NCBI GenBank assembly: GCA_050230475.1
Contig: JBFLGF010000117.1
Location: forward strand, 1 to 64,000
Length of the DNA: 64,000 nt
From: Ancylonema sp.
Taxonomy: Eukaryota
Direction: 5' to 3'
In this document: piece after piece, positions 4,911-48,253 of the stretch
How the letters are laid out: each line of letters starts with the position of its first letter
How positions within the stretch are numbered: position 1 is the first letter of the stretch
Program-made: the position numbers and the translations under genes
The notes under the pieces: model-generated
Seen by the model: the letters and a program-made list of their open reading frames with translations, nothing else
Database searches by the model: none
Told to the model about the DNA's origin: nothing

Positions 4911-9756
<4,846 letters not shown>

Positions 9757-10383: not shown

Positions 10384-10609
10384 ATGAGTTCGGTGGCGGT
10401 TATCTCCGGTTCAAAGATGTTCGGTTCGCCGCTCCGCGAAATGGACGGCGGCGTTCACGGAGGTGGTTATAACTCACGTGCGGCCCTCACAGCCTCCCTT
10501 GGCGTTGCGAGGCCGCTGAAACGTTTACGAAGCTCTGAATTCAGCAACTACGTGGCACATTTCTATCATCTCCTCGTGCTGATACCTTCTGCTCTGCGGG
10601 AGGCTCATT

Positions 10610-17522: not shown

Positions 17523-19636
17523 TCAAGCACTTGCGTACGATATCTTTCTGATGATGGTTGCACCCTCTCGTAGTTTCTGGATGCTCTCCTCCAAACGGAT
17601 CCTCTCCCTCTGCATATCTCAATTCACTCTCATGTAATCCTCCATTTTTGGGGACACCCGAGCTGCCACACCTGTATCTACCTCCTTGATTAGTGCCTCT
17701 TCTAGCCGATATTTGATCTCTAAGACTATGTCGTCAATCACTCGCTTCTCCACCACTTTCCAATAAGCGCTCATGTCGACTTGGACGTCTACCACTGCTT
17801 GGTCATCATTGCTCACGAGGTCATTGACATCCAACTCCAAGTTGCCTTCGACTTCTAGCGCATAAGACCCTAACGCATTAAAAAAAAGAAACTTGCCATT
17901 TTTGGCAATCTCTTTCTCCTCTTCAATCTTCCCACGTGTATTATTCACATTGTCCATATAGTAATGGTTGTCTGTATATATGAAACTCGCCTCCTTCTTC
18001 ATCCTCCGTGTGATGTATTGCTTGCGGTCTGTCTGAGCGATCTCCATCACGGATGTGGTTATTTGGCGGAAGGACAAGGCCAGATTGGGGTAATTGGAGG
18101 CGTACTCCAGTGCGACTTTACATGCCACCTCTGTTGCGTACTCCCATGCTGTGTCAGCCACTCTTGCGCACACTGTGGAAATCTTTGCCACTTCCGCCTT
18201 CACGAGCTTACGGAATACCCATGCAGGAGTGACATTGCTAAGCGAGACCCCCTTCGCCTCCTCCATTTCGAGTGCACACACTTTGGTGTACTCGGCCGAC
18301 AGAAACTCAGAAGCTGAAGTACGGACCTCCTCCCCAAAGTCTTTGAAGATCTGGTGCAGGCGAGGAGCATAATGCATCTGCATATCCTCCGGGAACTCCT
18401 CATTCTCTCCATGCATGAGGGATTTTCGTGATTGCTTCCGGTCGTTTAGTATGCCCATGAATACTCTCACAGCCCCTCCACCTCCTTCGCAGCCAGGTGG
18501 AAGATCAATCAAATTCGCTTCCCGAGAGGTCAGCTCTGAATCGATGGCAGCCTTGATTTTGGGGATGGCCACCCGAACCCGTTCCGCTAGGAGAGAGGTG
18601 AGGCGTGAACCGAGGGCGGGAATCCCGAGCTGAGAGCGATCCAGCTTACAGAGCTCAGGGTGTTGCGAGAAGAGCTTGTGTTCGACATCACGCGCCTCTC
18701 CGTGAGACATTGAGTCATTGGCCCTGTTTCATACGAGAATCAACCCAAGGCCAATATTCACATCATTTTTCTTGACTCTTTTGTATAGCCCTTCCGGCTT
18801 ACGGTCGGGTTTCGTCACCACGCCAAGAGTTCGGGCACCAGCTTTATCAACAGCTTTGGACAGGGTGATGCTCTCGCACGTGCTGAAGTCGTGCTCAGCA
18901 GAGAGAACATTCAGGATGATCGTCTCCTCGGGTTCGATATACTCTTTTATCATTGCCACAATCTGTTGATGTATGTCTTCCGGCTGCTCCCCTACGGGAA
19001 CCCTGGTTATACCAGGCAAGTCCACCAGAGTGAGATCTGGAAGGTCCGGCCGGCTCACTATCAAAGTGATCGGTCTGCAAACATGGACATGCTTGTAGCA
19101 TTTTAATATACTTGACTGAAGAGCGAAGAGGAACGACGTTAGGAATGCACCGACGGTAATATATGAAGGCCATCTCAACACAAAAAGCCAGGCAAGAGTG
19201 GCCAGCATTTAAGAAGATATGGTAGGAAAATCAAGAAGACAACATTTTTTCACCTATTCTTGACGTCCTTGTCGTGTCCAGCAAGAGCATCCGTAGCACG
19301 GAGCACCGCGTCAGCCACTCCGTCGGGCAGCACGGTGATGACCTTCTGGCCTTCATGCTCAAGTTTGATCGACTCCTCCTCATTGCGTTGCAAACGGAGG
19401 ATAAGTGGCACGCGAGTTACGACATCAGAGCCACGTGGGAGGTCAATGCCCGCTAGGGATTCAAGAACAGACGACTTGCCGAAACTTTGATCGCCGACCA
19501 CCACGATTGTGGGGAGCTTTATCCCCTCACTCGCGATCCCGAGCTTCCTAAGATTGTCAATCCCATCCAGAAGTGGTCGGATTTTCTCGTTGAAGGCATC
19601 GACCAAAGAACCACGAGGTCCCGAGCTAGTAGCCAT
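17523..19636 (-). pseudogene. DRP4: DRP4/Mx-like dynamin copy A, full length with two in-frame TGA stops; exons 19636-19254, 19074-17523
   Basis: G1 GDQSFGKS, G2 TRVP, G3 DLPG, G4 TKPD, stalk and GED (AYWKVVEKRVIDD). TGA at 18729-18731 and 17619-17621; homology to the paralogs continues past both, to a stop at 17523. Confidence 0.88.
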
Positions 19637-20069: not shown

Positions 20070-22470
20070 TTGGGACATGACAGACGACAGGCGGAGAGGT
20101 CGGAAATACTAGGCCGTCGGTCCCGAGAAGGAAGATTTGAACGAAGAAAACGGAACCATGCACGACGACGACGCATAAATTTGGCAGAAGAAGTGGAGCC
20201 TGGATTCGAGGGAGAGGACTTGAAGGATTGGCAAGGTACAGTCAGGCATCTTACCATGAAGGAACAGGGTAGAAATCCAGGTTTTAAACAACTTCAATTC
20301 TGAGTACATTTATTCACTATGACTATATCCAATGACCTCAAATGAGGACTTCCATGTTGACACTGGCTTCAATGTGAACAAAATGCACATACTGCACTCC
20401 AGTCGCTGCCTTTTCTCCGTTAGTTTGGAATCGGTATTCTAGCCTGGGGCATGCTTCTACTCCCGCTGGCAGATACTTATTTTTCAACGCAACTCTGGAG
20501 GCTGACAATTCACCCTGCGTGGAAACACTACGAATTTTATCATACATCCAGGGCGCCCCTTTTGTACTTGAACCTCAATTTGTTTGACATTGAGATAAAC
20601 GAGCTCATCAACGTGCTTTCGGGCGTGTCAGATGACTGCGAGGAGATGGAGTGGGAGGCGCACAGCGATTGAATCGAGTAGGACGACGAGCGAGATGTGC
20701 AGGTGAGCATGAGGACTGGATGTCCTTTTACCCTCCACAAAAAAAGTATCTCAATTTGATCCCATGGATCAAATTTGGGTCAAAAATAGCACATCAGAAA
20801 CTGAAGTAACAAAAATATTTGAATGGCAATTAACTTTTATAAAGCCACTCCAATCATATAACCTACAGGCTGTTAGGGAAACGTGCAGTAGGTATTCTCA
20901 TCATAGCCACATTACTTGGTATCCTACAGATCTCCAATTCGCGGTGAAAGAGATCTATCTTTCTTACGAATGGGCTGACAGATGACCGCATACGGTCATA
21001 CAATCTATTGCACGTCCTTACAAATTTTCAAATGTTTAACGTCTGCAAATGAATTGCTGAGAAGCTGAAGCTGAAACAACGACCATCTGACAGTGTTCGC
21101 TGTTTGCTCCCATCTGCTTCCAGTTCGGCGTCTAGGTTCAGGGAGGAGTTACAGCCTGGGGGATCTTACGCCCTGTGGTTGAGTGGGGCCGAGCTGCTCT
21201 TGCCATAGTAGAGAAGCTGGCGGGGTAGGGAGCGTTTGGAGAGGAAGCTCTCGCCATTACTACGCTCGGAGTTGTACCTGGCAGGGGCAAATTTGACTGC
21301 GGTTGGACAAGGAGGAGGAGGGTGGGGGAGCAGTTTGCAGTGTGTAGCGCGTGATAAGAATCCTCGTGAGTTTATTGGTGAGGAACTTGTGTTGTTTGGG
21401 AGGTACGAGGACACTTTCTCAGCAAAGTTTGGTCGCCTGTACCACTACTGTTCTTCCTCTCTCTATTTTGTACAAGACAATGACGTGTCTTGGATAAGAA
21501 CAACTGACGCTGACAGATGGATGGGCTGGCTTGGCTGTAAGGTAATCCTAGATGATGCCCATTGCCACCTCAAGCCTTGAAAGAGCCTTGCAAGCCTAGT
21601 AAGCTAAATGGCCAGCTAGGTTGCCTGCCAGCTATGGATCCGCGAGTGTGGACGACTTTGAATCATTTTCTCGGATCTACAGCCTTCAGCTGGACGAGGC
21701 AGTGACAGCTGGCATTAGGAGGGCAGAAATCACACAGGAGATACTCCCGGATTTTGCCGGCAGATGGAAGCTGATTCTCTGTCACCACTTGCTGTGGCTA
21801 CAGTCTCTCGAAACCCAAGATTCCCGAGTGAGGCGGTTTGCAGTTTGCTGCTGTGCCAGAAAACTCTGAACCCCTGAACTCTGAACGTTTGTTCTGACAG
21901 GGTGGACTCCCGGCACAGCAGTGCTCACTCAACAAACTGAACTTCGGAATGTGGTCTACCGTCCGCGACCTCTCGTTGAACCAGTAGGGGTAGAGAACTT
22001 TATCCCTGAGCAGAGCTTGTCCTTTCGAATGCGGACCTGCCACCACTCGGCTGATATGCACCAGAACGCGAGAGGTGCAGGTGTGTGTATTGGCTCTTCG
22101 AAAATGTGTGGGAAATGTCTTTATTTCATCGAAACTGGTGACAGATTACCCTCTGTCTCCACTCACATGTTCATTCATCTCCAGGGGCAGAATTGGTCTC
22201 GAGGGTTCTGTCATAACTGATCGGATTCTCAACCCTTCTGATGTACTTATAAAGAATGACAGGACTGGGAGAAGGGGGGGGTGGACCAGGAGGAGGTTTT
22301 GAAGCTGCTAGAAGTGGATGACGAGTCGGAACTGGCTAGTGGAAAATGAAGAGTGAAGAAATGTGAGATTCAACTGGGAGGTGGCTGGGAAGTGACAGAG
22401 GAGCACTGGATAGGAGGGTGCAAGCGCTTGTTCAGGACCGTAGAGACTGTTATGGTGTATGATGACAACT
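20070..22470 (+). pseudogene. rimP: Degenerate duplicate of the RimP-like gene
   Basis: Exon homologues: ~20632-20702 (DCEEMEWEAHSD*IE*DDERDVQ), ~21124-21310 (EWGRAALAIVEKL with stops), ~21632-21740 (YGSASVDDFESFSR, donor GT>AT) and ~22180-22470 (PGAE.., LLEVDDESE). Introns are also homologous. Confidence 0.88.
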
Positions 22471-23439: not shown

Positions 23440-25984
<2,545 letters not shown>

Positions 25985-29937: not shown

Positions 29938-30965
29938 CGGGGTTGCACAATGCGCACAATACGCTGAGTTATCATACGCTAAATACGCGTATTGTTCTCC
30001 TAGCGTATACTAGAGTACACTGAAAAATACACTAAATTTTGACCTTGTATTTTTTTTTATAAGATATTGCTGTACGAAAATTATGGCGGAGGCAAACAAC
30101 ATTGTGAGGTCTACATTGTTTGAAAGTGAAATAGTGAAAGTGAAAGTGAAATTTATTCGATACTGCATCGCACGGCGAAGATGATCTACAACGTCGCTGG
30201 TAATCCTCATCCGACCGTCCAAGTTTATGATGCATTTGTGGCGGGAAGGACGGGACTTGTTACTCCATTTATTAGGATTTGCAAGATCATCGGACTCGGC
30301 CGTAATGAGTACTAATCATGATGCATGTTCTCAATAATAGTATTTTAAGGAGGGTACTACAAGGCATTTTATTTTATTTTTTAAGACTTGGTCGAGTGAT
30401 ATGCTTCGGAAGTGTTTACGAAAAACAAGCGGTAGACAATGGAGTAGGATTCATGTAATTATTATCGTAAATTGTTGTTATTTGGATTTTAGTCTTGCAT
30501 TTGTTGTTGGTTTCTAGCATTACACTTTTTTTATTACCAAACTCAAGTAAGAACGGAAGCCACGATCGAGCCTTTTTTGGAACTGGTTGTAAATTGAAAT
30601 GGAGTAAAGATTGATGAAACGAGTGTAAATGTAATCGGTTAAAGAGAAGAAGAGAAGAGTGGGTCCATCAACAATTGCCCCATTATCGCACTAGCAAAAT
30701 GATTAAACAATTGTACACCTGTGGTAAGAGATGCGCGTGTCATGTATATCATGGATAAATGCCTCCTTTGATGGCCAATTTTATTTAAGATAGCCACCCG
30801 ATGTTATCATGCGATTTCTGGATATGAGTGGGGTCTAAACCGTGGAAAAATCGCATATTTATCGTCAATACGCGTATTTTCAAATCACGAAAATTTTCAA
30901 TACGTGAAATACGGCGTATTGTGACCCAAACGTATTGATATCGTATTGCGTATCGTGTAACCTTG
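29938..30965. mobile_element. Old hAT-type non-autonomous element
   Basis: Degenerate TIRs CGGGGTTGCACAATGCGCACAATACG / CGTATTGCGTATCGTGTAACCTTG; flanks GCTTTCAT / ACTGTCAT (6/8). Confidence 0.6.
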
Positions 30966-31511
30966 ACTGTCATTGTGTCTAATTTACATCCTTCATTCAT
31001 GTGATGGAGGGAGGTGGATGATACTTCATAACTTACTTCTGAATCATTAGAGCAATGTTTCAAATATATTTAGTCATTAATAACTCAAATAACATACGCG
31101 AGGACATTTAGATGTCAAAGGGAAATTGCAGAGTACGGGTCTAGAATAATATGACAACAGATGCTGCACACAGTTTATGTGATAATGGTTCATTGAATTC
31201 TAACTATGTTTGCGTGCTTGGAAATACCATCGAGCACAACGAGGCGCTTGTTTTCGACATATTTTCGGCGTATATTCGACACTTTATTTCGCATGTTTTC
31301 GGGGTATTTTCGGCTTCATGCCCACATTGACAAGGCTGGTATGGCCAACATCAAATCATTATTTGCATAGTATGATGCGCATGTAGGGCGATGTTTCCAA
31401 GTACAACTATTCAAATTATGTACAATGGTATATGATCATGGTGTCCAAGCCATAGGAAGGCAAGTTATTCTATCGCATCAAAAATCGGCCAAAACTTCTC
31501 ACATCGTGTTA

Positions 31512-33490
31512 TCATGATGTAGTACACAACAATTCCGCGGACTTGATAATGGCGTCAGCATGCTTGAAATTCTGGATGCTCCCTTGCAAATGAACGCGGT
31601 GGCTGTTGATTTCTGGTCGGTCCCTCATATGGTACTCAATTGATGTGCCTACTGCACTTGTCATTGTCGCATCCACCTCCTCAAGCAGGGCCGCTTGAAG
31701 CCGAAATCGGGTTTCCAAGAGCACATCCTCCATCACTCGTCTTTGTACTATATCCCAGTATGCATGCATGTCCATTTGCATGTCCGTCACCGTATGGTCA
31801 TCGACATTGACAAGGGTGTAAGATGCGAGCTGTAATGCATCACTTGGTGTCGATTCTTTGCACGTATGCGCGACCTTAACTCCCTTCCACTCCCGAAGCT
31901 TTGAATGCGTTTCATTGACGACCACCATGTAGTCGTGAGTATGAGTGAACACAAGGCTCGCCTCCTTCTCCAACCGCCTTGCGATGTACTCCTTGCTCTC
32001 CCTCTTTGCACTCTCCATCACCCTTGCAATAACGTGGCTGAGTGTAGATGCCAAGTTTGGATAGCATCCGGCCTTGGCCAGGGTGAGAGTGGATGCCACC
32101 TTGGTCGACTCAAACGCCTTGTCTACCACACGCGAGCATATGGGGGCGATCTTTGCTACTTCCGCTTTGACGAGATGAAGACGCACCCTCGGAAGAGAAG
32201 CTTTGCTTAACGAAACCCCTTTTGCCTCCTCCGTCTCCACGACACACAGTGCCTTGTACTCGTTTGAGAAGAAGTCTGAGGACGCCACCCGGACCCCTTC
32301 CTCAAAGTTCTCAAAGATCTGGTGTAGACGAGGAGCATAGTGCATCTCCATATTGTCACGAAACTCCTCATTGTCTCCTTGTATGAGCAACCTCATTGAC
32401 TCCTCCCGCTTTTCCATCACGTTGATAAACCATTCCATAGCCATGACGGGTCCATCCCACACACGTGGCAACGCGGCCAAAGATGCTTCTCGCATCCTCA
32501 AGTTGACGTTGATGTCGGCTTCTATGTTTGAGATCGCGCACAACACCCGTTTCATGAGTAGTTCGACGATCCTAGCACTAAGCGAGGAGATCCCGAGCCG
32601 TGAGAGGGGAAGCTGACTCAAAGAATGCTTAGAGAAGAGCTCACGTTCATCATCACGTTCTCTCTCTAGCGATCTCCAGCGCTGCCCGTAGTATCCTCGC
32701 GAGAGACTATGTACCTTGGTGCTCACAAGTACATACCCCAAGCCAATTGGAACTCCATTTTTTGTGAGTTTCTCGAACAAATCCTCGGGCGCAAGATCCG
32801 CTTTTGTCACCACTATTAAAGTTCGGACGCCAGTATTGTCCGCTTGTTGGGACATGGCGATGCTTTTGCTCGTTGAGAAATCAACCTCTGCCGATATCAC
32901 ATTGAGAATGATGCTTTCAATGGGCTCGATATATTGCTTGATCATGGCCCGGATTTGGTCGTTCATGTATTCCTGCTGATCCTCGATGGGTACCTTGGGT
33001 ATTCCCGGCAAGTCCATGAGAGTGAGATCTATAAGATCCGGGTGGCTCACAGTAAGCGTGATGGGACTGCAAGAGCAAAACAATAAGATTTTATTGTCTT
33101 TGCATGTTTCACATGTTAGCATTGATTGATCAATATCAATTCATGCAACGTCTCCAGCCAAAACAAAACCAAAAGAAACGAAAGACAATAGATTCTTTAG
33201 CAAAAAGTGAGACACAATGAAGCCGTGAATAAGAAAGTAACTAACATCAAGTGTGTTGTCACCTATTCACGACGCCCTTCCCTGTGCCGGCAAGGACGTT
33301 TGTTACACGGTCCACCTCGTCAGCCATGTGTGACATTGTTATGGAGATGGCCTCTTGACCCTCATGCTGAAGCATGACACTATTTTCCTCCGCTCGTTGC
33401 AAACATAGTGTAATTGGCACTAATCTCGTAATCCTTGTGACCCATTAGTGCGTCCACGACGCAAGACTTGCCATGGCCTTCATCGCCATG
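31512..33490 (-). pseudogene. DRP4: Divergent DRP4/Mx-like dynamin copy C, 5' end removed; exon pieces 33490-33263, 33066-31512
   Basis: Begins at GDEGHGKS, with a frameshift/deletion at ~33430-33445. Exon 2 is open (DLPG, TKAD, stalk, GED). Its N-terminus appears at 44901-45043(+). Confidence 0.85.
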
Positions 33491-33500
33491 CGATAATCGA

Positions 33501-35425
33501 TCTAGCGGGAATCGATCTTCCACGTGGCAACGGTGTCGTCACACGAGTTCCCCTTACTCTCCGCTTGCAACGAGCGGAAAAGGAGTCGATCGTTATAGAG
33601 CATGAAGGCCGGGAGGCTGCCTACGTGCTTCCTGATGGCGTGGCCAAGGCGGTGTTACGTGCTACCGACTTTCTTGCCGGGAAAAACAAGGGCGTCACAA
33701 ATAGGTGATAAGGGAATCATTATAAGTCCTTTCTTGTCAAGCGATATGTTTTCATTTTCAAAAGAATGTTCTCACATAGGAGTCGACTCACATTCAATAA
33801 TGAAGTGTCTATGCATCTCCCGCTCGTACATGTGGTACTTACTTTAGAGTTGAACTAAATCGGAATTTATTTTGTATTTTTGCAGGCCGATTATCCTCAC
33901 GGTTAGCCGCCCAGACCTTCCGGATCTCACGCTGGTGGACTTACCCCGAATAGTCCAGGTTCCTATCGGGGATCAGCCGGCAGACATCTACCACCAGATT
34001 TCGACCATGATTCGGCACTACATCGAGCCGGAGGAGACGATCATCCTCAATGTGCTCTCAGCCCAAGTAGATTTCCCCACGTGTGAAAGCATTGTGATGT
34101 CGGCCAAGGTCGACAAAGCTGGGAGTCGAACTCTGGCCGTCGTGACGAAATCGGATCGTGCACCGGAGGGGTTGTTTGAGAAGGTGACCGAGAATGCGGT
34201 GCCTATCGGCTTGGGCTACGTCCTCGTGTGCAATAGAGCGGATGACTTGATGTCGCACGAGGATGCCCGGAGTGTTGAGCGGGAGCTCTTCTCCAACCAC
34301 AAACACTTGAAACGTTTGTCTCCCTCTCAACTTGGCATCCCAGCCCTGGGCACTAGGCTAACCGCTCTACTAGCAGAACGAGTGTCCCTTGCGATCCCGA
34401 AGATAAAAGCCGATATCAATGCACGGCTGAACAAGCGCGAAAATGAGTTGGCGTCGCTACCACGTGGCTGGAATGGGGCTGCCGAGGCCTTGGGACAATT
34501 CATCACCGTCAGCGACAAGCGGCGGCACTCAATGAAACTTCTGATACAAGGAGAGAATGAAGAGTTTCCCGAGGACATGGAGATGCACTACGCCCCTCGA
34601 CTTCACCTAATCTTCAAAGATTTTGGGGCGGAGGTGAGAGCTGCGGCGTCACCGTTTCTGTCGGCGAAATACAGCAAGAAGTGTGCCCTCGCGATGGAGG
34701 AGGCCAAAGGAGTTTCTTTTAGCAATGTCACGTCACCAAAGGTGCTGCACCAATTGGTGAAGGCGGAAGTGGCGAGGATCACCCCCATATGCGCAAGCAT
34801 GGCCGAGAGGTCATGTGAGTATGCATTAAAGGTGGCATCCGCACTCGCCAAGGTGGGGGCCACGAGTTACCCCAACCTTGCCTCATCCTTCCATCAAGTC
34901 ACAACAGTGGTGATGGAGAGCGCGCTCCACGAGTGCAAGCAATATATCGAACGAAGAATGGAGAAGGAGGCCGGGTTCGTCTTCACCGACAATCACTACT
35001 ACATGGATGTCGTCAATGAGACGCGCGGAAAAATACAAGAGAGAAAGGAGGTTATTAAGCAACATAGGCAACTCCATCCGTTTACGGCGGTGCTAGCACC
35101 AAAAGACGTCTGGGAGGTGGCGTTGAACGACCTAGTCAATAATGACGACCAAGCGGTGCTCGACGCACAAGTGAACATGTACGCCTACTGGCGGGTGGTT
35201 CAAAAGAAGGTTACGGATGACATTCCTCTTGAAATCCGATTCCGACTGGAAACGGCACTACTCAAGGAGTTAGGTGCGAGAGTACGGGCCCAAGTTTGCT
35301 CAAACATCGAGGATTACATGCGGGAACAACCGGAGGTGCATAACAAGCGATTACGTTTGCAAGGGAGCATCGGAAAATTGCAAGATGCTGCCGCTATCAT
35401 CAAGACCACGCCACAATTTTTTTGA
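33501..35425 (+). pseudogene. DRP4: DRP4/Mx-like dynamin copy D lacking start and P-loop; exon pieces 33501-33704, 33886-35425
   Basis: Starts abruptly at [17 protein letters not shown]. Same phase-2 intron as A and B; G3 is mutated to DLPR; exon 2 is open to the stop. Its N-terminus appears at 45044-45211(-). Confidence 0.87.
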
Positions 35426-35938
35426 TGAGGTAATTTTTAGAATAAACGGGTTTAATATCAAAAATTATCAGAAGTTATGTGGGACTTAATATACGTGACA
35501 CGCGATGCAAGCAAACGATGTTTTGGCGATGTTATCGATATTTTCGACACTAAAACTTCAAAAAACACCGATGTGACAAAAAAACAAGAGTACAAGAGTA
35601 CAAGAGTACATTTGGAGATTTAAAAAAAAAACACGTCCGTGTCAAATTTTGCATTGTTGGAGTATCCAGGCCCGCTTACAAATTTACAATGGCGGAATAA
35701 ATACCTTTTTTTGTCAAACTTTAACTGTCATCGAATTTTCAATTACATTCCTTGATTTCTTTTTGATTTCTTTCCGAAAATGAGATGACTAACCTCATGC
35801 ATCGCCAACATGAGCAGGAATGTTGTGCGTTGACGCAAAATGGCATTCTTGCGATTTATTACGTATGCGAGAGTGGTTTACCATCAGATAATCTCGATTT
35901 GTTCGAAGTATATGATTAGAGAATTATGCAATTTGCTT

Positions 35939-36000
35939 TTGCGTGAACTCATTGTTTTCTTTGGGTAGCTTGCGTGAACTCATTGTTTTCTTTGGGTAGC
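35939..36000. repeat. 31-bp perfect tandem duplication
   Basis: TTGCGTGAACTCATTGTTTTCTTTGGGTAGC x2. Confidence 0.9.
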
Positions 36001-37475
36001 TTAGTGGCAATATGTTTTCAAGACAAAACCACGTGCAATTTTGTTTTTTTGGTCGCGTTCGATTGATCCGTTATGTGGTCTCTTTTGATTTCAATCGATC
36101 ATGATGGATATCAAAGCATTTTTGACCAATACCCGATGATATTGGATTATGAAACGTCTTGATTTTCATAACAAAATTTAAATTTTTACACTATAATTGT
36201 TTCCTACTGTCATGCAATGTGATGATTTTTGCAGCATAAACACATCACCTTTCCACTATAAAAATTGTTCCTCAACGATGATGCTACCAAAATCTTAGAC
36301 GTGATCAAAGAACGATGATTTATTTGGCATGATACGGATGTCATTTCAAATGCTCTCCGTATAATCTAAAACACCACTCCAAAACCGTAGCCTTGCCGCG
36401 TTGTTACTTCCAAGAAAATTGCAAAAGATTAAAACACAGTGATGAGAACAATGAGAATAATGAGAACAATGAGAATACAACGAGAATACACTGTCTATGA
36501 CATCATTGCTAAACATCGAAAATCAACTCGTATAATTTAAAAGTTGAATTATAAGCGTGTTATTTCTCGGACTAATTTACCCCATAGTAGACAATAATTT
36601 CCACCTTGTTGTTGATGTTGTTGTTGTTGTTGTTTTTTTTTTTTTTTTTTTTTTTTTTTTTGTAAATTAGTTTTTTGAAGAGTTTATTGTATTGAGTTTT
36701 TTTTTTTTTTTTTTAAAATAGAAAATTGCCGAATAAGGTATTGTGTATATCAAACAAATTCATTTCAACAAAAACGAACAAAGAAAAACCAATGCACTCG
36801 GAGATAACAAAAAAAGAAAATGTATTTATTTATATACCTTCTTCAGTTACAAGTTTTTACAAGTTTATGTATCTTCTCTATTTTTGCTAGGTACTACGTA
36901 ACGTAAAATGACATAGTTGCCAGTACGATGTAAATTATTAAGTTACATTAATCTTTACGATTAATATATTTTTTGATTATTGACCTCATTTTTTTCCGTT
37001 TAAAACGTCTCCATCGTTTCAAAAATTTCCTTATTGGAATACGACGAAACTCAAGTGCAATTCTACGTTGTCAATTTCCAAATCTAGCATATTTATAGAG
37101 ACGATGAAACACCATTCATGTATGGTATTTTTTTAACTTATCGGCATTCCTCGTATGCTTCTCGTGCAAATAAGTATCATAAAAAACCGACTTACAATTA
37201 TTATAGATCTTGATATAGCGCACTATCAATAGAATAAGAAAGAACACGAAAATGTCGCGATTTTTTCCCTCAATACATATTGAAAGTATACACTTTCTAG
37301 GTGACGGGCTACCGCAAGTTTCCATCCATACCATACAAAGTATCCAACGTAAATTGGTCGAATTGGAAATGTAGATAACCGACGGAATGTACAAAGTGCC
37401 GAAAACACCATGAGTTTTTAGCGTCTCCATTTTGCAATCGATGCCTACAATTAAACCCGTTTACGGAAGGTTTTA

Positions 37476-37976
37476 ATGAAGGACCTGAAATCAATGGAAT
37501 TTACAAGTCTCTCGTTACGGCTGTTACGAATTGGTGTGAATGCTGCGTGCGACGAGCGGTTTTTATCGATATCAGGGATCGTGCATTCAAAGACGCATAA
37601 CCGACTTGACCCGGAACGTGTGACCGAGATTGTGAAAACGAAGACCACCCTGTCTTCCCAACAACTGGTGGCCGGAAGATTGTCATCATTTGTAGAGCCT
37701 GTCCCTCGCCTTGAGCGCGTACCCACATTCGCACCCGAGGTTGACGAGATTGACGACATCACGATCCCCGGCCTCATCTTCGATCAAGAGGGCATTGATG
37801 CGGAAGCAAACAAGTGGCTTGATGAGATCGCATTGGAATGCGTAGCGACAATGAATGAGGCATCTCAAAGCGCGCCTCGCCCCTTCACGAAACGGACGCT
37901 TTCAAAAATATTTGTGTCCACACTTGTGGACCCAAATGATGAAATAGGCGCTTGTGTGGAGATGATGATCCATTGA
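37476..37976 (+). mobile_element. hAT transposase C-terminal dimerisation domain remnant
   Basis: LSLRLLRIGVNAACDERFLSISGIVHSKTHNRLDPERV resembles the hAT ERxFS...HSKxRNRL motif, followed by an acidic tail. Confidence 0.75.
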
Positions 37977-40753
37977 GATAAACATCGTATAAAAAGATTT
38001 ACAAATGCTCAAAGTTTCTTTGCACGACTGTCTCCTTAGGCACGCTACATTCCCCTTCACGTTTTGATGACAAAATTCCCTTATTTTTATATTCGTCGTC
38101 GTTCGTGATTGTAGATAAGAAAATAAGTATCAATGTGTAGAGAAAATATGGTAACGGATTTCATGAGTGACTACGCAATTAGCGATGCCAATTGCTTCCA
38201 ATTGTTCTCACTTTGTTTGTTTCTTCGGTACTCTGGTTTCTTTCTACATTTTAGACACCACTCATTGAAGTCTCGCTCCAATTTTTGCATATATAGCATA
38301 CGCTCAAAAAAATGTTGGGAAAAAAACAATGTTTACTTGAATCAGAATTATGCAGGCGATCACACATGCATGAATAAAAAAGTGGTTGTACATGGGCCCA
38401 TTAAAGGTTGTGAGTCCCGGTTTGTCTAATCGTTTCGAAAATATGCTTCAAACACATAAACCCATTGGAATGACGAGTGTGTAGGGGCACCATTGTGTTC
38501 GAAGGTACCAAAAGGTGCAGGAAACAAGTGAACATTAGCAGTTTGGCAATTTAGGGGTAATCCTTAATTCAGGTTGAAAGGTTAATAAATCCACGAGATA
38601 TTTTCAGGGCCTAATTACTATCCCTGGGGCCAACAACTGATGGCTCCAAACCAGTGAGGACTTCCAGACGCTCCAGGGCCCGAAAGCAACGAAAACTCCT
38701 GTCTTCCACCGAAAGCTTGTGGTCCTCTCTGTGTCCCTGTTTGGCTTCAAGGGCGCATCATGTTGGTTGCCTGTAGTTTCTCCATCACGGCTGCCTTTGG
38801 AAATACAGGTAAGCTTGTTTGAGGGCTGCTGTAAGTTGAAGTTACAAATAATGGCAAAATCTAGACACCTTGCTGCATACCTTCTTCAGGTCGCATTCTC
38901 CGCAACGAGTTGCATGTGCGATTGGGGGGTGGGAGCGTAATGGAATTCAATATATCAACAGCAGGCGACCTGACAGATGACAGAGACTGCTTGCAAAGTG
39001 TTTCTGACGAGCACTTGCACCTGCATTTTGAAACGAATTGTATGCATAATTGAAACACTGCGGTACTGTTACTTTCATCAGGCCGCGGCACTATGACCCG
39101 TAGCCTTCAGATAGTTTAGATATAGCAGTCTCCAACTGCTTTCCCACAGCGCTGTTGTACTCAGCCGCTTGCACTGCTGCCTCCATTGATACAAAAATAG
39201 CATACCACCATGTTCTCTCCTGCGAAGATCTCCCGCATTTTTACATGTTGAGACCATGCCGATCACTTTTTATATCCGAAAGGAGGCCGATTTTGATACA
39301 TATTCCTTGTGCTCTGTTTTAAATACAGCACTTTCTCAGCCGTGGCATCATATATTATGTGGAAATATTATTTGACTGCGACTGCGATAACACATCTACT
39401 TCGCTGTCACAAAGACAAAGTGGCAAGAAGTATCGGACATAGATACATTTACAAGATTTTTTAGCAAATCTGGCCTATAAATATCCGTGCTGCATGCATC
39501 TGGTACATTCAGATGTTTGGATTTGGACTAGACAATCAGTTAGAATGGATCAATCTTGCACATGTTGCAATTGCTTATCCATCCGTGCACCACTTCAGAA
39601 TGATGTTATTGCAAATTATCGTATGTGGAGTCTCCCGAAGGCTGATTCACGTGTCATGTGGCATGCGACATCAGTTACTTGAATCAGTTACATGTGAATT
39701 GGACACTGCGTCAAAACGTAGTGTTGGCTGATGTATATATACTCGTACTATTACTGAATTACTCTATCACACTCACCATGTTACATGTTATGTATTTTCC
39801 CCTTTTTCTTCTTTCTTCTCCTTCTTTTTTTATTTGATCACTTAAAAGACAAAATTGATTCATTTGAACCACTTACTGGCGAAGTGCGAAGTCTGTTCAC
39901 GCACCATACATTACCAAAATATCAAAGCACGTGTACAGTTGTCCCTCTCGTTAATCACCTTCTTCGTAGTGATATGTTTTTATGTCTATTCAGTAACGTT
40001 CAGAAGTAAAGAGTGAAGTCTAGGGAACACGTAGGCAATACAAAATGAAAACTGTGGACTTTGTCTCGTTCTACAAAAATTAGAGGTACGAATGATCTGT
40101 TATAAAGAAAGAAATGAAGTAGGTAACCTTTCTTGTGAACATTTAGGGATCATCATCTCTGGAATCTGAAGGACAACAGAGTGCCTTTATAGAGGGACGA
40201 TGGCATGTCCATCAGGGAGATTGGGCTGTTGTACTAATAGAAAGGGTGAAGATGGACCCATACATGTCAAATTTCATTGGTTATGTTGGACTGTACAGCA
40301 TACGAGTCAGCACCATGTGCCATGTCAGCATGTTCTTCTTGAAATATTGGTGACTGACAGTTCGGTTTCTGGTTGGTGCAGGGACTGGGCGAGGATCAAG
40401 AGCGCCAGAACATCAATGCAGTCTGCCACGTCATCAGTTCCTTGGGTGCTCTCTTGGAAGTAAAGGTGAGGCCTCGGGCCCGCACTTGAAATTTGAGCAG
40501 CTGATGCGTTGACTTCCAGATATGTCAGGAAATCCTCTTTATTGCTGGATCTGTTTCTCACATCTGAGGGTCGACTTTCGGTTTACACATGCCAGCTGGA
40601 TTTGCGTCTGACATATGTACATATGTACATATACACATATTCAAAACTGAATGTGTTTTCTCTACCCCCAAGACGTTGGGCATTTGTGGTCTCTGCGCAT
40701 ACATATGTATGTAAATGTGTTTACATACTTCATTCTGAATGTAGGTATGTACG

Positions 40754-41290
40754 TAGGGTTGTGAACGTTACCGTGACGCTTACGCGTGACGATAAATTAC
40801 GCGTCATTTTGACGCGTAATTACGTACACCCTCGGTAACGTTACGAATTACAGCGATTCACTACTTTTGGTCAGGACGGGCCCGGAATTGCCGTTACCCT
40901 GGCAAAAGTGTAATTGTAAGTGTAATCGTACACATACCCGTACATAACCGTACGCATCATATACAACAATTCTCGTATATCCAGCGTATGTTGTACAAAT
41001 ATGTGTACGGTAAAGGACAAATGTACTTTTCCGTACAATTTTTTGTTTCAATGTACGATAGTACTTGTGAGTAAATACGTGCGATCATTTTACTTGATTA
41101 TTGGTTTCCACACGTGTGACATTGGAATTCCCGGCTTTATATCGACATTTCGCCGAACCTTCCTGTCGAAAATGGCCGAGCGTAATGTGACGCTTCCAAA
41201 ATTACAGTTTACGCGGTTTACGCGTAAAAGCGTAATTCCACACGGTCATTACGCGGGCAAAATCCCAATTACGGTAATTTCACAACCCTA
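40754..41290. mobile_element. hAT-type MITE, 537 bp
   Basis: Perfect 12-bp TIR TAGGGTTGTGAA / TTCACAACCCTA and perfect 8-bp TSD TATGTACG (40746-40753, 41291-41298). Confidence 0.92.
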
Positions 41291-41744
41291 TATGTACGTA
41301 TCTGCATGTCTGCATGTATGTTCAAATATAGTCATGCCTGTACGAATGTCTGATTTTACCATGCATGTATGACTATATTTATGAGTACATTTATTTAAGT
41401 ATGTTATTGTGAATGTAAGTCAGTACGTATATAGGATGTCTCTATGTATGCATGTGTGCAGTGTACATGTATGTATATCAAACAACTATATATTGAAATA
41501 TCTATTCATGTAAATATGTATGTGAACATGCACAGTTGTACATATGTATGCCTCACAGACTAGATGTGTGCAGGCTACTGGAGAAGTTGCAATGATTGCA
41601 AAGCGCATATTGATTAACCCAAACTTTTGTATCCACCCCCCACCCGCCACCCCCCTCCCCTACTACCCCTTCCCCAGTCTCTCGGTTCAAGTCTCATCAT
41701 GACAGAAACCACTATCCCACGTGCGTGCACCGACACTGTGCTAG

Positions 41745-43084
41745 ATGGCAGGGGCTGCTGGGCCTGAGGCAGACAGAGCCCCTGTGAGGACGCCAGGTGT
41801 CAACCTTGGGAAGACAGAACACCCTAAGGAAGGTACACGTGGCAGCACAGACTTTCTTCTCTTTTCGTCAAAATACCCTCTGAACCCATACGCGTTTTTT
41901 TACGGGAATGCGTTGCTGACAATGTGTAACAATTCATGAGATTTTTAGTTTTCAGAGCTGAAGGCTGTATCAGTGAACGAATAATGTACTATCCGCTTTT
42001 GTGCAAGACACGCTGTTTTTGTAAACAGTGCTTGAGGTGTGGAGGCCCAAGTTTTTTTTTGCTTCATTTTCTTTTTCTGTCCCCACCCCCCCCTTCTTCT
42101 TCATCCTCTTCCTCTTCTTGTTTCTTGCGTGTGTTTTTTGGAGTCGAGGGTTCACCATCAAGGGGTGTGAGAAGAGTGTGTAATTGTATGAGCTTCAGTA
42201 GTAGTAGTAAGTCTCAAGGGTCAACGTCCTTGTATAACTTGAAACTCTAGCTTTTTTGTTTTACGAGAGTATAGATCATCCATTAATTTCAGTTCGATTT
42301 TGCTTCATTGCCCACACAGTGTTGGAGTTGGATGTTAAAAATAATGTATCAGAGATGGGATCTTCTCCTAAGGCGATGCACGTCATTGGCATGTGGTGTT
42401 ATAATGCTCGTAGACTCTGAGGAGATCATCCCTCGTCCAGAGTTGGGTAGCACTTGTAAGAAACCGCCTTAGGTATATATATGTACATCCATGGACATAC
42501 AGATATATATGAATGTATACAGACATGTAACACAATATGATCTTTGGTTTCATCCTGTGTCATATGCGAGTTCATGAAACGAGGAGATATGATAACATCC
42601 ATATTGTCGATAGACGCACCTATGCCCTTCAGCAGAGTTGATCTAGTTTTGGTCCCCTTGGTCCCATTCGGAATATTTATTGATTGATTTCGAGAAAGGT
42701 ACCAAATTCTCAGAATTTACCAAACAAAAGGTTTCTTTTTGTCCCCTCCCCCCCCTTGCAGACTTACAAACGAAACCCACCCGTCAACCCCAAGGTGCGT
42801 TGGTCGCCAACTTCAACGAAAAGATCCGCCCCACACTCGATGCGATCGACGGTCTCCGCAAGTTGGGCGTTGCAAGTGAGGGGATCCGGTTGCCGACGAT
42901 AGTGGTGGTGGGCGATCAGAGCCACGGAAAGACTTCGGTCCTCGAGTCTCTTGCAGGGATCGATCTCCCACGTGGCACCGGTGTGGTGACACGTGTCCCC
43001 CTCGTTCTCCGCTTGCAACGAGCGGAAAAGGAGTCTATCATGATTGAGCATGGGGGCCAGGAGGCGATACCCGTGCAACCCGAC
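41745..43084 (+). pseudogene. DRP4: DRP4/Mx-like dynamin copy E, 3'-truncated; putative exons 41745-41832, 42762-43084
   Basis: [53 protein letters not shown], then homology ends abruptly. The phase-1 acceptor at 42761 matches a phase-1 donor at 41833 (upstream exon inferred). Confidence 0.8.
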
Positions 43085-44200
43085 CGCTGCTCTACTCCCT
43101 ACCGATGCCCACCGGGCTGAGCAACAAAATCGGTAGGAAAGTGGTAGGGGGTAGCTACCGGGTAGCAACCCTCTACCGCAAGCCGAAAATGCGGCGCCAC
43201 CAATTATCGGGGATGGACTGGTGGAGTGGCGTGAGATCGCGTGGCTTACCACGTGGCATTCGCGTGAACTTGGCGTGAGTTGGCGTGAACTGGTCGTGAA
43301 ACTCACAACGTTTCGGCGTACTTCGCCTGCTCACAATTTCTGGCTCTTCCAAACTAAAGATTACTGAGCTCTTTCATGGGTCCAGCAGTTTCTCGATCTC
43401 TTATCTCCGAGGCGTGACTCTGTGAAGTAAATCCGCAATATTTTCATAAATCAACAGTCTGCTTATGTGTCGGGTCAAGTCCTCATCCTCCCTGGCGTAT
43501 GGCGTCGCTACCATGCAATGTATCGAGGCGGATGATAATGGCTGCAGGCGCAGCTGGTAAACGTTCAGTGGCTTCAACAGGTGAGTTCCACCGGCATGTA
43601 CCTCAGATCTCCGCTCGTTCGTGGACTGATAAGCAGCTATACGAAAATGCTGTCTGGTTGGGCCTACAAACAAGCCTGGGTTATGTTATGGGCTGCTCCC
43701 TAGACCATTTTGCAGCTGGATGTGAAATGCCTCGTACTATATACGGGCCCCAAACCATGACCGTCCAGGGCTGTGGGCTGTTGGTGCCCACCTTATCCAA
43801 ACCTAAATCCAGCCGGACAGCCCAATACTGAGACCTCAACGAAATGGCGGGCTGGAAATGGGTCGGGCAGCTTGAGGTCAGCTGAGAACTGTGCATGATT
43901 GTACCTACCTGCGCACAAATCACACTGCTCAACCGCATAGAGTTCGCTCGAAAGTTCGCATTATTGAAAGACACAGGCACGTATACGACTTGAGCACGTT
44001 GAAGATGATGGTTGACGGTGCATGAATATTCTTTGTCGGCTCATGGCATGTGGTTCCACCACGTGGCTGTGGCTCGATGGGCACTGCAACATCATAGTCA
44101 CCGCCAACCAGAGTGGGTAGCCGGAAGTTCAAAGAGACACCCATGAGCTTGGGGCTGCTGAGCTAGGTGTCCGATAGAGATCGGGCCTAGGGGCTGGGGA
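43085..44200 (+). mobile_element. Unclassified insertion with terminal stem-loop and a degenerate ORF (possibly Crypton-like tyrosine recombinase)
   Basis: Inverted repeat CCTACCGAT/ATCGGTAGG near 43097-43137 and GGCGTGA repeats. The frame from 43499 stays protein-like through several TGA codons. Confidence 0.3.
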
Positions 44201-44900
44201 ACGTGACACATTCAGACTGTTGATGACATCAAACTCTTGGTCAATCCTTTACTTTTCCATTTCCATATTTCACAAATTTTTATATTGACTCTTATCCATC
44301 GAGACAATATCCTGTACGGCTGGAGTCTTGTGATGGTCAAGTTTCTTGGTGTTCACGATTTATGAAATTTCTATATTCATCATTCTTATGCCCGCATGTT
44401 GTTTGGCAAGCATTGATTTGATGGTGAAGGATCCACATATCGCCGAACTATTTATATAAATTTTCACTTGCTCTTATGAGAAGTCCCTCGCTCTTACATT
44501 TGAAAACGAATAATGTATTCACGGATCCAACAATCATAAGAGTGGGAGTGCAATCATTTTGAGGAGTCAATGTGGTTTCAAAATCCGAATGGGATCACTT
44601 CTCTTTGTTGTTAATTGGCTATCACTTTCTTAGTGACAACCAATTATATCACAATGAAAAGAGCTTGAGTCAACGCGGTTCTAAGAATTCCACTGTGGTT
44701 TTTTCAATGATGGCCAATGTTTACCACAATTCATAATCGAAACTTCACGTCATTTCTTCTCACCTTGAATATCTGAACTTTTGTTTACTACAAAAATATG
44801 TATGAAGATGTTTGGAGTCGTTACATGGACACCTATGTGTGATACAATGAATTGAGGACTTCAAGACTAATAATTTATTTCCTTCTTTTTTCCATCACAG

Positions 44901-45043
44901 CTTCAACATATGTAGATGAATTCCGATCCCAAGGTGCCCTTGTCTATTTGTTCAACGACAAACTTCGTCCCATACTCGATACACTTGACAATTTGCAAAA
45001 GCTCGGCATAAGCAAAGAGGTTAAGCTCCCGAGAATAGTAGTG
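44901..45043 (+). pseudogene. Displaced N-terminal fragment of dynamin copy C
   Basis: After an AG acceptor: STYVDEFRSQGALVYLFNDKLRPILDTLDNLQKLGISKEVKLPRIVV, ending just before the P-loop. Confidence 0.85.
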
Positions 45044-45211
45044 CCGAAGATTTCCCGTGGCTTTGATCCCCGACGACTACTAAGTTGGCAGCTTCACCCC
45101 TTCACTCGCAACTCCCAGCGTTCTTAACCCGTCGATCACGTCCAGAAGAGGCCGGATCTTCTCGTTGAAGGTAGCGACCAGAGCACCTTGGGGTCGCGAA
45201 CTAACTTCCAT
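45044..45211 (-). pseudogene. Stranded N-terminal fragment of dynamin copy D
   Basis: [43 protein letters not shown](1-nt deletion)[12 protein letters not shown], ending just after the P-loop. Confidence 0.88.
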
Positions 45212-48200
45212 TCTCAAATCTGAATCATCGTGTACCACGCAAGGAGTGATCCCGGTGTCATTTCGGATCAGTCAATGGCGATCGTGTCAATTTATAATGA
45301 AAGAAAACCAGCTCATAATTTGTGGATCGAACTAAAAGAGAATCTCCCGTTGTGATACATTTCCCTTCTCCGAAAAAAACAGCATGTGAATCCAAGGTCA
45401 GTACCAGACGACATTCATCGCTGAAAGGCGTGGATAATTGATACAAGGAGAGAAAATGGGTATTTTTAAAGCGTTACGCTACGTAATATCAGTGGCATAC
45501 GTCGATCAAACAAACGGGAATCATTAATCATAAGAAGTGACTTGTTTAAGCGATCACGGCATGTCGTACCCAGAGAGAAGACATGCCAATAATAATACTA
45601 CACTTCCCAGCGAAGAAATCAAGATAGTGTGACTCGCACCCTAACCAGAATGTGGACGTTCCTCAGCGCCATTTATTTGTTTTCCCTTCATTGCAACGGT
45701 TCAGCGCTACGGTTGGCTGGATGAGATGATTTGCGGCAGGGATGGGGTACTCCAGAGCACACTGGAGAGGCGGTCACAGAGAACGACGACTTTCACAGTC
45801 CACATTCCCTGATATGGCGTTAGTCTGGTTTCCTTTCTGGTATTCACAGGCCGAAGTGCAAAATTACATCTGATTACATGCAGCGTGAATTGGAGTGAAA
45901 AGAAACCTATTCATTGGTTGAAGAAAGCATTTTAAAAAGTATGGTCTGTTGGAAGCGTAAACGAAGCGGCGAACGACGCTCCATGTGGATCTACAAACTG
46001 CATCAGGAAAGTGAAGGTCGAGGTTGTTTCTTGTTGTGCCAAAATTGTACGGAAGCATTCATTTACCCTCGATTCCTTTGTCTTGAAACTCCACCCTGAC
46101 ACCGTATCTTGCAACTCCATTACTGGCATGAACTCATTATCAACAAACGAGTGAACAAGAAGATGTCTGGGAGATTTCGAGATTGACATCGCAAATAGGG
46201 TCGAGCGAGGTATCCCCACAATCGGGTTGGATCCCGATTCTTGTTTGGGAACCGGGTTAATGAGGCTCGCAGGGGCACATATTTTGTTGAACAGCCTCGG
46301 AGATTTGTGCCTCGTGTATCATGCTTGCCTCGTGCCATGTCATGGTTGCTTACTACAATTTGTTGTTTCCGACGGTACCGGTATTCAGGTGCGCACGAAC
46401 TCGACAAACCGAATATCATATTTAAGAAAACTATCATTGAAACAGACGGGCGAGGGCGGCGGCGGAGGTGTCACGTTCGATTAATAACCATCACGATTCT
46501 ATAACCACTACTACGATTATTCTAAATATTCGGGTACAAGATATTCGGGTAACCATACAACTTTGTCGCAAAAACGAAAAACATATTCGCACAGATTGAA
46601 AGCAAGGAATATGTTGCGTATAATATTAAACCACATTTTTCGTGACATGACTACCCAAGTGCCAAAATCAGCTCAACAGTCATAAAAATCTAAAAAATTT
46701 CATTTTGATTTATATATTTTTATTAAAAAAAAAAAAAAAAAAAAAACGTCAAATCGTCAACATATGTCTGAGTCACGTATTTTTTTTGGTTCTTCGATCT
46801 GAAGATACTTAGATTCATAATTTCAAGAGATCATCCTACTTCACTTCAGGACAAGTAAATCTACCTATCGTCGAGCTGAATATCTTGGGCGAAATTACTA
46901 GCCGAGTCAACACACTTTTGTAGTATTTTCATAACAACTTCAAAACAAAAATACGACACATGAGTTAAAATGCCTGAATGCTGGTTACACAATGTAACCA
47001 TCAAGGCATTTTAGAGTCCAAATACCAATCAATGCCTGCATGATATAAATATTATGATAGCTTCATAAAACCACGTTTCGAAATTATGGTTTATTGAACT
47101 TGTTCACGTAAAATTTCATTTTTCAAACACGGAAACGATGGATACAAAATGATTTTTCCTAGGATATTCAATATCCTTTTTTTTTCTTTAAAAAAAAAAA
47201 TATATAAAAAAAATGTAATCAACTTTTGCCCACGGTCGGACTTGTCGTATCTGATGCATTATGTGTAAAGTGTGAATCTACTACGGATATCAATTGGACA
47301 TTTAGACATTTGTTTCGACAATTTTTGAAATTTTCGTCAATATCGAACCCAAAGGGGCCCTACGAGTGGAACATAAATATATGTGTGCTTTTGAATGTTA
47401 TTAATTGACACCTCTAAGACACCGATAACAATGATCACTCAAGTAGCCATTGAGTTCCCCGAATTTTTTTTTATCGCACTACCATGTTGATGTGTAGCGA
47501 CACATGTTTGCGATTCATAATCTTTTTCCCTAATAAAAATAATATACTACAAACTTCATAAGTGTAAAGTCCGAAATGAAATGTCTTTGAACCGCGAGGC
47601 ACGAGCATGCCGCTGTGGCGAGCAACACAAGCGTTGCCGGGACGGCAATAATGTTTACATGCTTCATGTCAATTTTTGTGGTGTCAAGCGGTTATAAAAA
47701 TCATTTAAAGAAAGCGTGCGTATATAAAAAAAAAGTGGCACAATGGAAAAATATCTTTAGCTACCAAATCAGACTCGAAATCATCTAGTATAAAGCAATA
47801 TCTTTGCACGTGCGGTTTAGCTGAATTGTCATTTTCAAAATTATTACAACAATAACTCACGTACAGAATCTCTTGTGAGTAGTCCTTGCCAGCTACAACG
47901 TTGGACAACGCTATTGGAAAACCTTGTGATACTTTCCAAATTATACGATGGAAATATAAATTCGCGCTCGTAGCCATGACGTGATGATCAAGTTTCTAGC
48001 TTTCTATACAACACTCTATCTAGCGGGCTTCGCAAATCAGTTTGGTTCAGTTGTATTACACGTTGCCGACTTATGAGATATACGTGTCAATTCATCACTC
48101 GTATTCCCAACATCACGCAACTCTCTAACCATCGACATCGACTCTTCCTCACGGAGAGCAAGCGCATGATCAGACTCCCCCTCATTCGTCCGCGTTACCC

Positions 48201-48253
48201 CCCCCCCCCCCCCCTCCTTCAACAGTACCATCTCCGGCGCCGAACCCACCCCT

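What the first reader, a model, noticed from the sequence alone, without database searches (positions are those of the whole stretch)
33490..45044. 11.5-kb inversion whose two breakpoints both cut the P-loop region of two Mx-like dynamin paralogs
Seen: at ~33490-33501 a minus-strand dynamin starting at GDEGHGKS abuts a plus-strand dynamin starting at LAGIDLPRG. At 45043/45044 a plus-strand N-terminus ending KLPRIVV abuts a minus-strand N-terminus ending GDQSHGKSS. Re-inverting the segment rebuilds both genes (PRIVV+HGDEGHGKS; GKSS+[VLES lost]+LAGID) and puts all five dynamin copies, including E, on one strand. The junctions show a 2-nt GC microhomology and ~10 nt of altered filler. Established: crossover between direct repeats gives deletion, not inversion. 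Inference: two breaks ~10 codons apart in homologous sequence, joined by end-joining or template switching, disabled two genes at once, which hints at sequence-directed breakage.
Basis: partly seen in the sequence, partly recalled or inferred. Interest (0 to 1): 0.85.

Follow-up and report, generated by a model that had tools for sequence, protein, structure and literature searches.

The report
Inversion splits two Mx-like dynamin genes
An 11.5-kb stretch of a plant or algal cluster of Mx-like dynamin genes has flipped, cutting two neighbouring gene copies near their starts, likely through ordinary error-prone repair of two DNA breaks, and it leaves a head-to-head junction that could make silencing RNA against the one intact copy in the window, which is untested.

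Summary
The inversion is real. Unbroken contigs of two runs (one sample) span both junctions. The gene halves pair uniquely, and a likelihood test favours that pairing. (1) The 'GC microhomology' is most likely an artefact: the right junction looks blunt, and the left holds a 13-nt filler, 12 nt of which copy the flanks (P about 0.001-0.01), like polymerase-theta end joining. (2) The breaks are not at homologous sites. They lie 29-42 nt apart, each gene is intact where the other broke, and they share no motif, which argues against sequence-directed cutting. Chance gives such an offset in 3-5% of cases, or 13-22% if breaks favour gene 5' ends. (3) 'Two genes disabled at once' is not shown: C was already drifting, and both copies carry other lesions. 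D evolves neutrally here and in a 1.9%-divergent relative, so the event is probably not recent. Verdict: a new example of a known kind, an end-joining inversion in a decaying DRP4 array. Open lead: the right junction puts antisense D behind C's upstream DNA, and that antisense matches intact copy B well.

The parts
33502..45043 (.). Inverted segment (11,542 bp)
   Evidence: Complementary gene halves at both ends; both ends spanned by contigs
33489..33501 (.). Left-junction filler, 13 nt: a 5-nt inverted copy of 33482-33486, one unassigned base, then 7 nt that with 33502-33503 repeat 33510-33518
45043..45044 (.). Right junction: blunt, no filler, no duplication; microhomology inferred zero from paralog codons
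31512..33488 (-). Copy C body: rest of exon 1 from the P-loop (17-nt frameshifting deletion at ~33440), intron, open exon 2; fast-evolving
33502..35425 (+). Copy D body: rest of exon 1, intron, open exon 2; G3 Gly>Arg at 33947
44909..45043 (+). Copy C 5' piece; no in-frame ATG at the paralogs' start (an upstream exon is not excluded)
45044..45211 (-). Copy D 5' piece, ATG through the G1 motif; 1-nt frameshift at ~45083; TATA-like and W-box-like motifs 92 and 71 nt upstream of 45205
42776..43084 (+). Copy E, 5' fragment only, cut in exon 1 next to repeated DNA
33558..33587 (+). 30-nt tract identical between D and E (43006-43035): likely old gene conversion in exon 1
   Evidence: permutation p=0.0012 on all sites, 0.038 on third positions, uncorrected; 16 pairs tested
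23440..25984 (-). Copy B, the only copy in the window with an unbroken frame and intact G1, G3, G4 motifs; the intron holds an (AT)206 run
17541..19636 (-). Copy A, in-frame stops at 18731 and 17621 (3' end approximate)
44900..45215 (.). Imperfect inverted repeat created at the right junction (C 5' piece against D 5' piece)
   Evidence: RNA fold z -2.37 (+) and -3.54 (-); 65-70% of aligned positions can pair

Best explanation
An 11.5-kb segment of a tandem DRP4 (Mx-like dynamin) array is inverted, with one end in exon 1 of copy C and the other in exon 1 of copy D; it likely arose from two double-strand breaks whose four ends were rejoined crosswise by end joining. Shown: the geometry, a right junction without filler or duplication, and a left junction with 13 nt lost and a 13-nt filler mostly copied from its own flanks. 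Inferred: the right pair of ends was ligated directly; the left pair was trimmed and joined after two short rounds of primer extension (one fold-back, one slippage copy), as polymerase theta does. Inferred: the near-register of the breaks reflects chance, possibly helped by fragile gene 5' ends and by this case having been picked out of a large scan. Inferred: the event persisted because the array is dispensable and turning over (4 of 5 copies are broken), and both split copies have since decayed.
For: Junction anatomy. Filler test against random 13-mers with template windows of 20-100 nt: longest templated match of 9 nt P=0.003-0.017; 12 of 13 nt covered P=0.003-0.047; both P=0.0007-0.01. No inverted repeat or shared motif at the breaks. 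C and D are only 61-64% identical in exon 1, longest identical run 14 nt, no conversion tract between them. Offset of 33-45 nt expected in 3-5% of cases for uniform breaks, 13-22% if confined to the first 500 nt or exon 1. E is also cut in exon 1. Decay: A, C, D, E lesions; 13 of the 16 coding differences shown between the window's D and run X3's D are non-synonymous (neutral expectation fits, P 0.29-0.47; omega 0.2 rejected, P 0.0002), and X3's D has a 4-nt duplication. Templated fillers as a polymerase-theta hallmark in plants, and one end by direct ligation with the other by theta: PMC10923293 (passages).
Against: The uniform-break probability of the register is low (3-5%). D and E share a 30-nt likely conversion tract 56-85 nt downstream of D's break, so these paralogs do seem to pair in exon 1. 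The filler length equals the total loss (13 = 13), an unexplained coincidence. The filler statistic was chosen after seeing the filler. The lost bases are inferred from paralogs, since no uninverted allele was seen. Junction sequence cannot name the polymerase: yeast makes fold-back inserts with Pol delta (PMC11724301, abstract). X3's contigs are shallow (depth 2.7-5.4) and errors would mimic neutrality.
Confidence: 0.68

Rival explanations
1. Aborted recombination between diverged paralogs. C and D paired in register through exon 1, the mismatched intermediate was cut on both duplexes a few helical turns apart, and the ends were end-joined in inverted orientation. The register would then be caused by homology, although the joint is non-homologous.
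For: Offset only 29-42 nt in a ~2.1-kb gene (3-5% by uniform chance). A likely D-E conversion tract in the same exon. Three of five copies are cut in exon 1.
Against: C-D identity is 61-64% with no conversion tract and a longest identical run of 14 nt that lies 63 nt or more from either break. One event cannot separate this from chance, and the case was picked for its register.
Confidence: 0.17
2. Replication template switching (FoSTeS/MMBIR): a stalled nascent strand copied the segment backwards and switched back, with no two free breaks.
For: Templated filler with one fold-back piece; losses confined to one junction.
Against: No microhomology inferred at the right junction, and a nearby 4-nt match was not used; no duplication or triplication flanks the segment.
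Confidence: 0.09
3. Sequence-directed cutting by a nuclease or hAT transposase at a site shared by the paralogs; the fold-back filler would be a hairpin-opening footprint.
For: hAT-type elements exist in this genome: a MITE with an 8-bp target duplication lies inside the segment. The first 8 filler bases resemble a gapped inverted copy of the C end (read).
Against: The cuts are not at homologous positions, there is no shared motif, no target-site duplication and no element end at either junction.
Confidence: 0.04
4. Assembly artefact.
For: X1 and X2 are one sample, which may be related to the assembly's source; only contigs, no raw reads, were available.
Against: Four contigs from two runs cross the junctions without gaps, at the same depth as flanking unique DNA. 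The filler and the losses are not what a mis-join gives.
Confidence: 0.02

Closest known systems
Cut-and-paste (NHEJ) inversions with templated filler, e.g. Drosophila subobscura O7 (PMC7584159, passages)
   Same: Breakage and ectopic end joining; one junction assigned cleanly, the other with a short filler partly copied from a flank (21 nt in O7); a breakpoint in an immune gene duplicate region.
   Different: Here 11.5 kb, no staggered-break duplications, and both ends lie inside the coding sequence of two direct paralogs, about 10-14 codons apart.
Polymerase-theta-mediated end joining with filler DNA in Arabidopsis (PMC10923293, passages)
   Same: Small deletion plus insertion copied from the immediate flanks; asymmetry of one direct and one filler-bearing junction, as at T-DNA right and left borders.
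   Different: Natural, inherited event in a non-model streptophyte; the enzyme is inferred only.
Soybean I locus inversion (PMC6418295, passages)
   Same: An inversion places upstream gene sequence in front of an antisense copy of a clustered gene family member.
   Different: In soybean the chimeric transcript and silencing are shown and the promoter is from an unrelated gene. Here both sides are paralogs, the antisense piece is 168 nt and 79% identical to its possible target, and no RNA was seen.
Plant DRP4C/DRP4A (Mx-like) gene turnover (PMC11789081, passages)
   Same: GTPase-middle-GED proteins with local copy gain and loss and repeated origin of truncated copies.
   Different: Five copies in one array against zero to three full-length DRP4C copies in the genomes surveyed there; a lineage-specific clade that groups with Closterium proteins.

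Membership tests
End-joining (NHEJ/TMEJ) inversion | Two reciprocal junctions with reversed interval | tested here: met
End-joining (NHEJ/TMEJ) inversion | No long inverted repeats at the breakpoints | tested here: met
   Longest inverted match between 20-nt flanks is 5 nt; self-BLAST shows only paralog-level similarity
Polymerase-theta-type junction | Deletion with an insertion templated from the flanks | tested here: met
   Left junction, P 0.0007-0.01 for both statistics together
Polymerase-theta-type junction | Microhomology at the filler-free junction | tested here: inconclusive
   None if both ancestors had the paralogs' Val codon; ancestral bases not seen
Polymerase-theta-type junction | Dependence on POLQ/TEBICHI | not testable with these tools
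   Historic event; no genome held
NAHR inversion | Breakpoints at the same position in inverted homologous repeats | tested here: not met
   Copies were direct repeats; breaks 29-42 nt out of register
Staggered-break inversion | Inverted duplications at the ends | tested here: not met
   Only losses of 2 and 11 nt
Transposon-mediated inversion | Element ends or target-site duplication at a junction | tested here: not met
   No terminal-repeat motif near either junction, nearest at 45737; contig depth at the junctions is single-copy
Site-specific (programmed, reversible) inversion | Shared recognition site, precise joints, both orientations present | tested here: not met
   No shared motif, imprecise left joint, only the inverted form in X1 and X2
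DRP4 (plant Mx-like dynamin) | Dynamin_N + Dynamin_M + GED without a PH domain; nearest named relatives DRP4C | tested here: met
   Pfam; named hits with a specific label are mostly DRP4C-like or Mx-like, 32-42% identical
DRP4 (plant Mx-like dynamin) | Placement in the Mx clade against DRP1/DRP3 outgroups | tested here: inconclusive
   The tree held DRP4-like hits only, midpoint-rooted; PDB hits to dynamin and Mx score alike
DRP4 (plant Mx-like dynamin) | Antiviral activity | not testable with these tools
   Unproven for most plant DRP4s (PMC11789081, discussion passage)
Rearrangement-born silencing locus (I-locus type) | Antisense or hairpin able to pair with a family member | tested here: met
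   59 of 148 antisense-D 21-mers score 4 or better on B, best 1.0 (own scoring from recalled plant target rules); folds
Rearrangement-born silencing locus (I-locus type) | Chimeric transcript and 21-24-nt RNAs, with target lowered | not testable with these tools
   No RNA run was available to lay

The most novel reading that the evidence does not exclude
Because the two cuts are almost in register, one inversion turned two Mx-like genes into a head-to-head unit. C's upstream DNA now reads into antisense D and D's into antisense C, giving hairpin or double-stranded RNA that silences the surviving copy B and other DRP4 paralogs. The inversion was kept as a one-step off-switch for an immune gene family, and its register came from pairing of the diverged paralogs.
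Probability: 0.08. Interest if true: 0.7.

Novelty: new member of a known kind. Interest (0 to 1): 0.33.

Why it matters
As it stands it is a clean natural example of how a tandem defence-type gene array loses copies and changes strand without crossover, with a readable repair scar, in a poorly sampled streptophyte lineage. It would matter more if near-register inversions between direct paralogs prove common, which would point to aborted recombination feeding end joining. It would also matter more if the junction is transcribed, showing that a family-wide small-RNA silencer can be born in one step.

Tried and rejected
No whole genome is held, so other copies in the genome could not be searched. 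No RNA holder was listed among 4 runs; this is no evidence on expression. Run X3 covers neither junction at 88% or, for the left one, 80% likeness among the pieces shown, so its orientation is unknown; X4 laid 1 record. A metagenome scan gave 10 loci at 38-53% protein identity, none close enough for synteny. Cluster look-up of the three best protein hits gave no names. A CBP60 exon search gave 2 angiosperm hits and no lineage. A transposase-like look of 37455-37973 was recalled from memory; Pfam did not support it even at E up to 1. Short palindromes near the breaks are not shared by C and D. No C-D conversion tract. The idea that D already carried the filler before a perfectly clean inversion fits the equal lengths, but was rejected as less simple: A, B and E share VLES there, and part of the filler copies C, which only became adjacent at the junction. 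Earlier findings: none near this place, none by words. Paper searches for inversions between directly oriented paralogs each listed one paper, neither describing this geometry in the parts seen; the library is partial, so this does not show absence from print. No supplements were read.
Full report
Setting. The window is eukaryotic DNA with introns, (AT)n runs and plant-type genes: a transthyretin-like/urate gene, a DUF7912 gene, CBP60 and a copia-type reverse transcriptase remnant. The dynamins carry Dynamin_N and Dynamin_M, and B and D also GED. Among the 120 hits listed, the best named ones are Closterium (42%), Ceratodon (39%), Calypogeia (36%) and seed-plant DRP4C (32-37%). In a midpoint-rooted tree of 26 of those hits plus four window copies, the window copies form one clade with two unnamed proteins (support 1.0), grouped with Closterium and one unnamed protein (0.999) apart from land-plant sequences. 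A DUF7912 exon is 48-59% identical to named moss, fern, lycophyte, grass and algal proteins. The organism is thus likely a streptophyte alga or non-seed plant; this is not settled.

Anatomy. tblastn with copy B finds seven pieces making five copies: A (19636-17541, minus), B (25984-23440, minus), C body (33488-31512, minus), D body (33502-35425, plus), E (42776-43084, plus), C 5' piece (44909-45043, plus) and D 5' piece (45211-45044, minus). On B's exon-1 scale, C's 5' piece ends at nt 138 and its body starts at 141; D's ends at 169 and its body starts at 181. So 2 nt of C and 11 nt of D are missing, and the breaks lie 29-42 nt apart in aligned position. D's halves are 78.6% and 77.0% identical to B, C's 70.7% and 64.3%. 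Native pairing beats swapped pairing by 13.5 log-likelihood units, in 98.6% of resamplings.

It is not an assembly error. Contigs of runs X1 and X2 cross the left junction (30898-35968; 30888-35968) and the right (44478-46697; 42901-46697) without gaps, at the depth of neighbouring unique DNA. None of the 15 joints shown of 23 changes strand, and none of the 20 loose ends shown of 510 lies at a junction. Both runs are one sample and one study. They differ from the window at 10 and 13 sites in about 5.07 kb, and from each other at five listed sites, which suggests more than one haplotype carries the inversion; assembly errors in the window could explain part of this. No collinear form was seen, but contigs drop rare variants.

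The junctions. At the right, C's Val codon ends at 45043 and the first base of D's Val codon is 45044; there is no filler and no duplication. If both genes continued as A, B and E do, there is no microhomology. At the left, 13 nt (33489-33501) match neither gene's expected codons. Five filler bases are an inverted copy of 33482-33486; seven more, with the next two bases, repeat 33510-33518. Against 20,000 random or shuffled fillers with a 30-nt template window, a 9-nt templated match had P 0.004-0.007, coverage of 12 of 13 bases P 0.003-0.005, and both P 0.0007. With windows of 20, 50 and 100 nt (3,000 draws each) the joint P was 0.0007, 0.002 and 0.01. The statistic was chosen after inspection. 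Such flank-templated fillers are described as a polymerase-theta hallmark in Arabidopsis, where one end can be ligated directly and the other by theta (PMC10923293, passages). Short fold-back inserts also arise in yeast by another polymerase (PMC11724301, abstract). A similar filler is reported at the Drosophila O7 inversion (PMC7584159, passages). That filler length equals total loss is unexplained and taken as coincidence.

Is the breakage sequence-directed? A cutter with a shared site would cut paralogs at the same aligned place; here each gene is intact across the other's break. The 20-nt flanks share at most 5 nt in any orientation, and no 6-bp hairpin is common to C and D near the breaks. 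No transposon end or target duplication marks either junction, although a MITE with an 8-bp duplication lies inside the segment. Two uniform breaks in such genes fall within 33-45 nt of register 3-5% of the time, and 13-22% if breaks are confined to the first 500 nt or exon 1. E is also cut in exon 1. The case was also picked from a very large scan for this feature. One result points the other way: D and E share a 30-nt identical tract in exon 1 (p 0.0012 on all polymorphic sites, 0.038 on third positions; uncorrected, 16 pairs tested; a B-C run in exon 2 had p 0.011), so paralogs here likely do pair. C and D show no such tract. Aborted recombination stays a live rival (0.17).

Timing and consequence. 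Pairwise dN/dS in exon 2 is 0.11-0.31, so all four long copies were conserved for most of their history, but C departs from 28 of 124 conserved residues against 13, 8 and 9 for A, B and D. A has two stops, C a 17-nt deletion, D a 1-nt frameshift and a broken G3 motif, and E is a fragment; only B is intact. Run X3 holds a relative about 1.9% divergent (38 differences in 2,025 nt over six pieces). The four X3 pieces over D's exon 2 and its 3' end have 33 differences; 19 were displayed, 16 of them coding; rows from paralog contigs were left out by their depth values. Thirteen of the 16 are non-synonymous, which fits neutrality (P 0.29-0.47) and not omega 0.2 (P 0.0002). By paralog residues 3 arose on the window's side, 5 on X3's, and 5 are unclear. 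X3's D also has a 4-nt duplication at 35181, in a contig of depth 2.7. D thus seems dead in both lineages, so the loss likely predates their split; X3 does not cover the junctions, so the inversion is not proven to be the shared cause. The open exon-2 frames of C and D cap the age: at 2% neutral divergence per lineage both would survive with P 0.002-0.11 (with an assumed indel rate).

A side effect. Near-register breaks make each junction the centre of a long imperfect inverted repeat: fold z-scores are -2.4 and -3.5 for the two strands at the right and -6.3 at the left. This follows from paralogy and shows no function. But the right junction keeps both upstream regions facing each other, and 59 of 148 antisense-D 21-mers would score 4 or better on B (best 1.0), against 3 of 115 for antisense C (scoring rule recalled). 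The soybean I-locus inversion silences a gene family through such a chimeric antisense transcript (PMC6418295, passages). Whether these promoters still work is unknown.

Verdict. A real inversion, apparently fixed in the one sample seen, best explained by two breaks and end joining with a templated scar, in a DRP4 array of the high-turnover kind described in PMC11789081 (passages). New member of a known kind; interest 0.33.

Noticed in passing
window 40754-41290: 537-bp MITE with 12-bp terminal inverted repeats and a perfect 8-bp target duplication, hAT-type by recalled rule; contig depth about 100 times single-copy in X2.
   Followed up: partly
window 11381-13314 and 20548-22467: The DUF7912 (RimP-like) gene has a decayed second copy (59-81% identical), each copy lying before a dynamin copy (A, B): an older segmental duplication unit.
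   Followed up: no
window 4914-6387 and ~10500-13316: A transthyretin-like/OHCU decarboxylase gene lies next to the DUF7912 gene; one database protein model (P0136) carries all these domains together, hinting at conserved neighbourhood in another lineage.
   Followed up: no
window ~48250-53880 (-): CBP60-family calmodulin-binding gene about 3 kb from the array; CBP60s are immune regulators in flowering plants (recalled).
   Followed up: partly
window 43085-43330: Repeated, palindrome-rich DNA directly after the cut end of copy E (raised depth in X1 and X2; sequence); E's body is absent from the window.
   Followed up: partly
window 37455-37976 (+) and 37800-38500: 173-codon open frame in moderately repeated DNA; looks by recall like a hAT transposase tail, but Pfam gave no match.
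   Followed up: partly
window 6966-7453, 8207-8322, 25167-25578: Very long (AT)n runs of 244, 58 and 206 units; the last lies in the intron of intact copy B.
   Followed up: no
window 30500-47500 against X1/X2: Many of the shown fixed differences between the window and the runs are G>T or C>A (10 of the 26 single-copy rows), a skew that could be mutational bias or assembly error.
   Followed up: no
window 3376-4118 (-): Copia-type reverse transcriptase remnant with an 89-bp direct repeat at 2678-2766 and 4149-4237.
   Followed up: no
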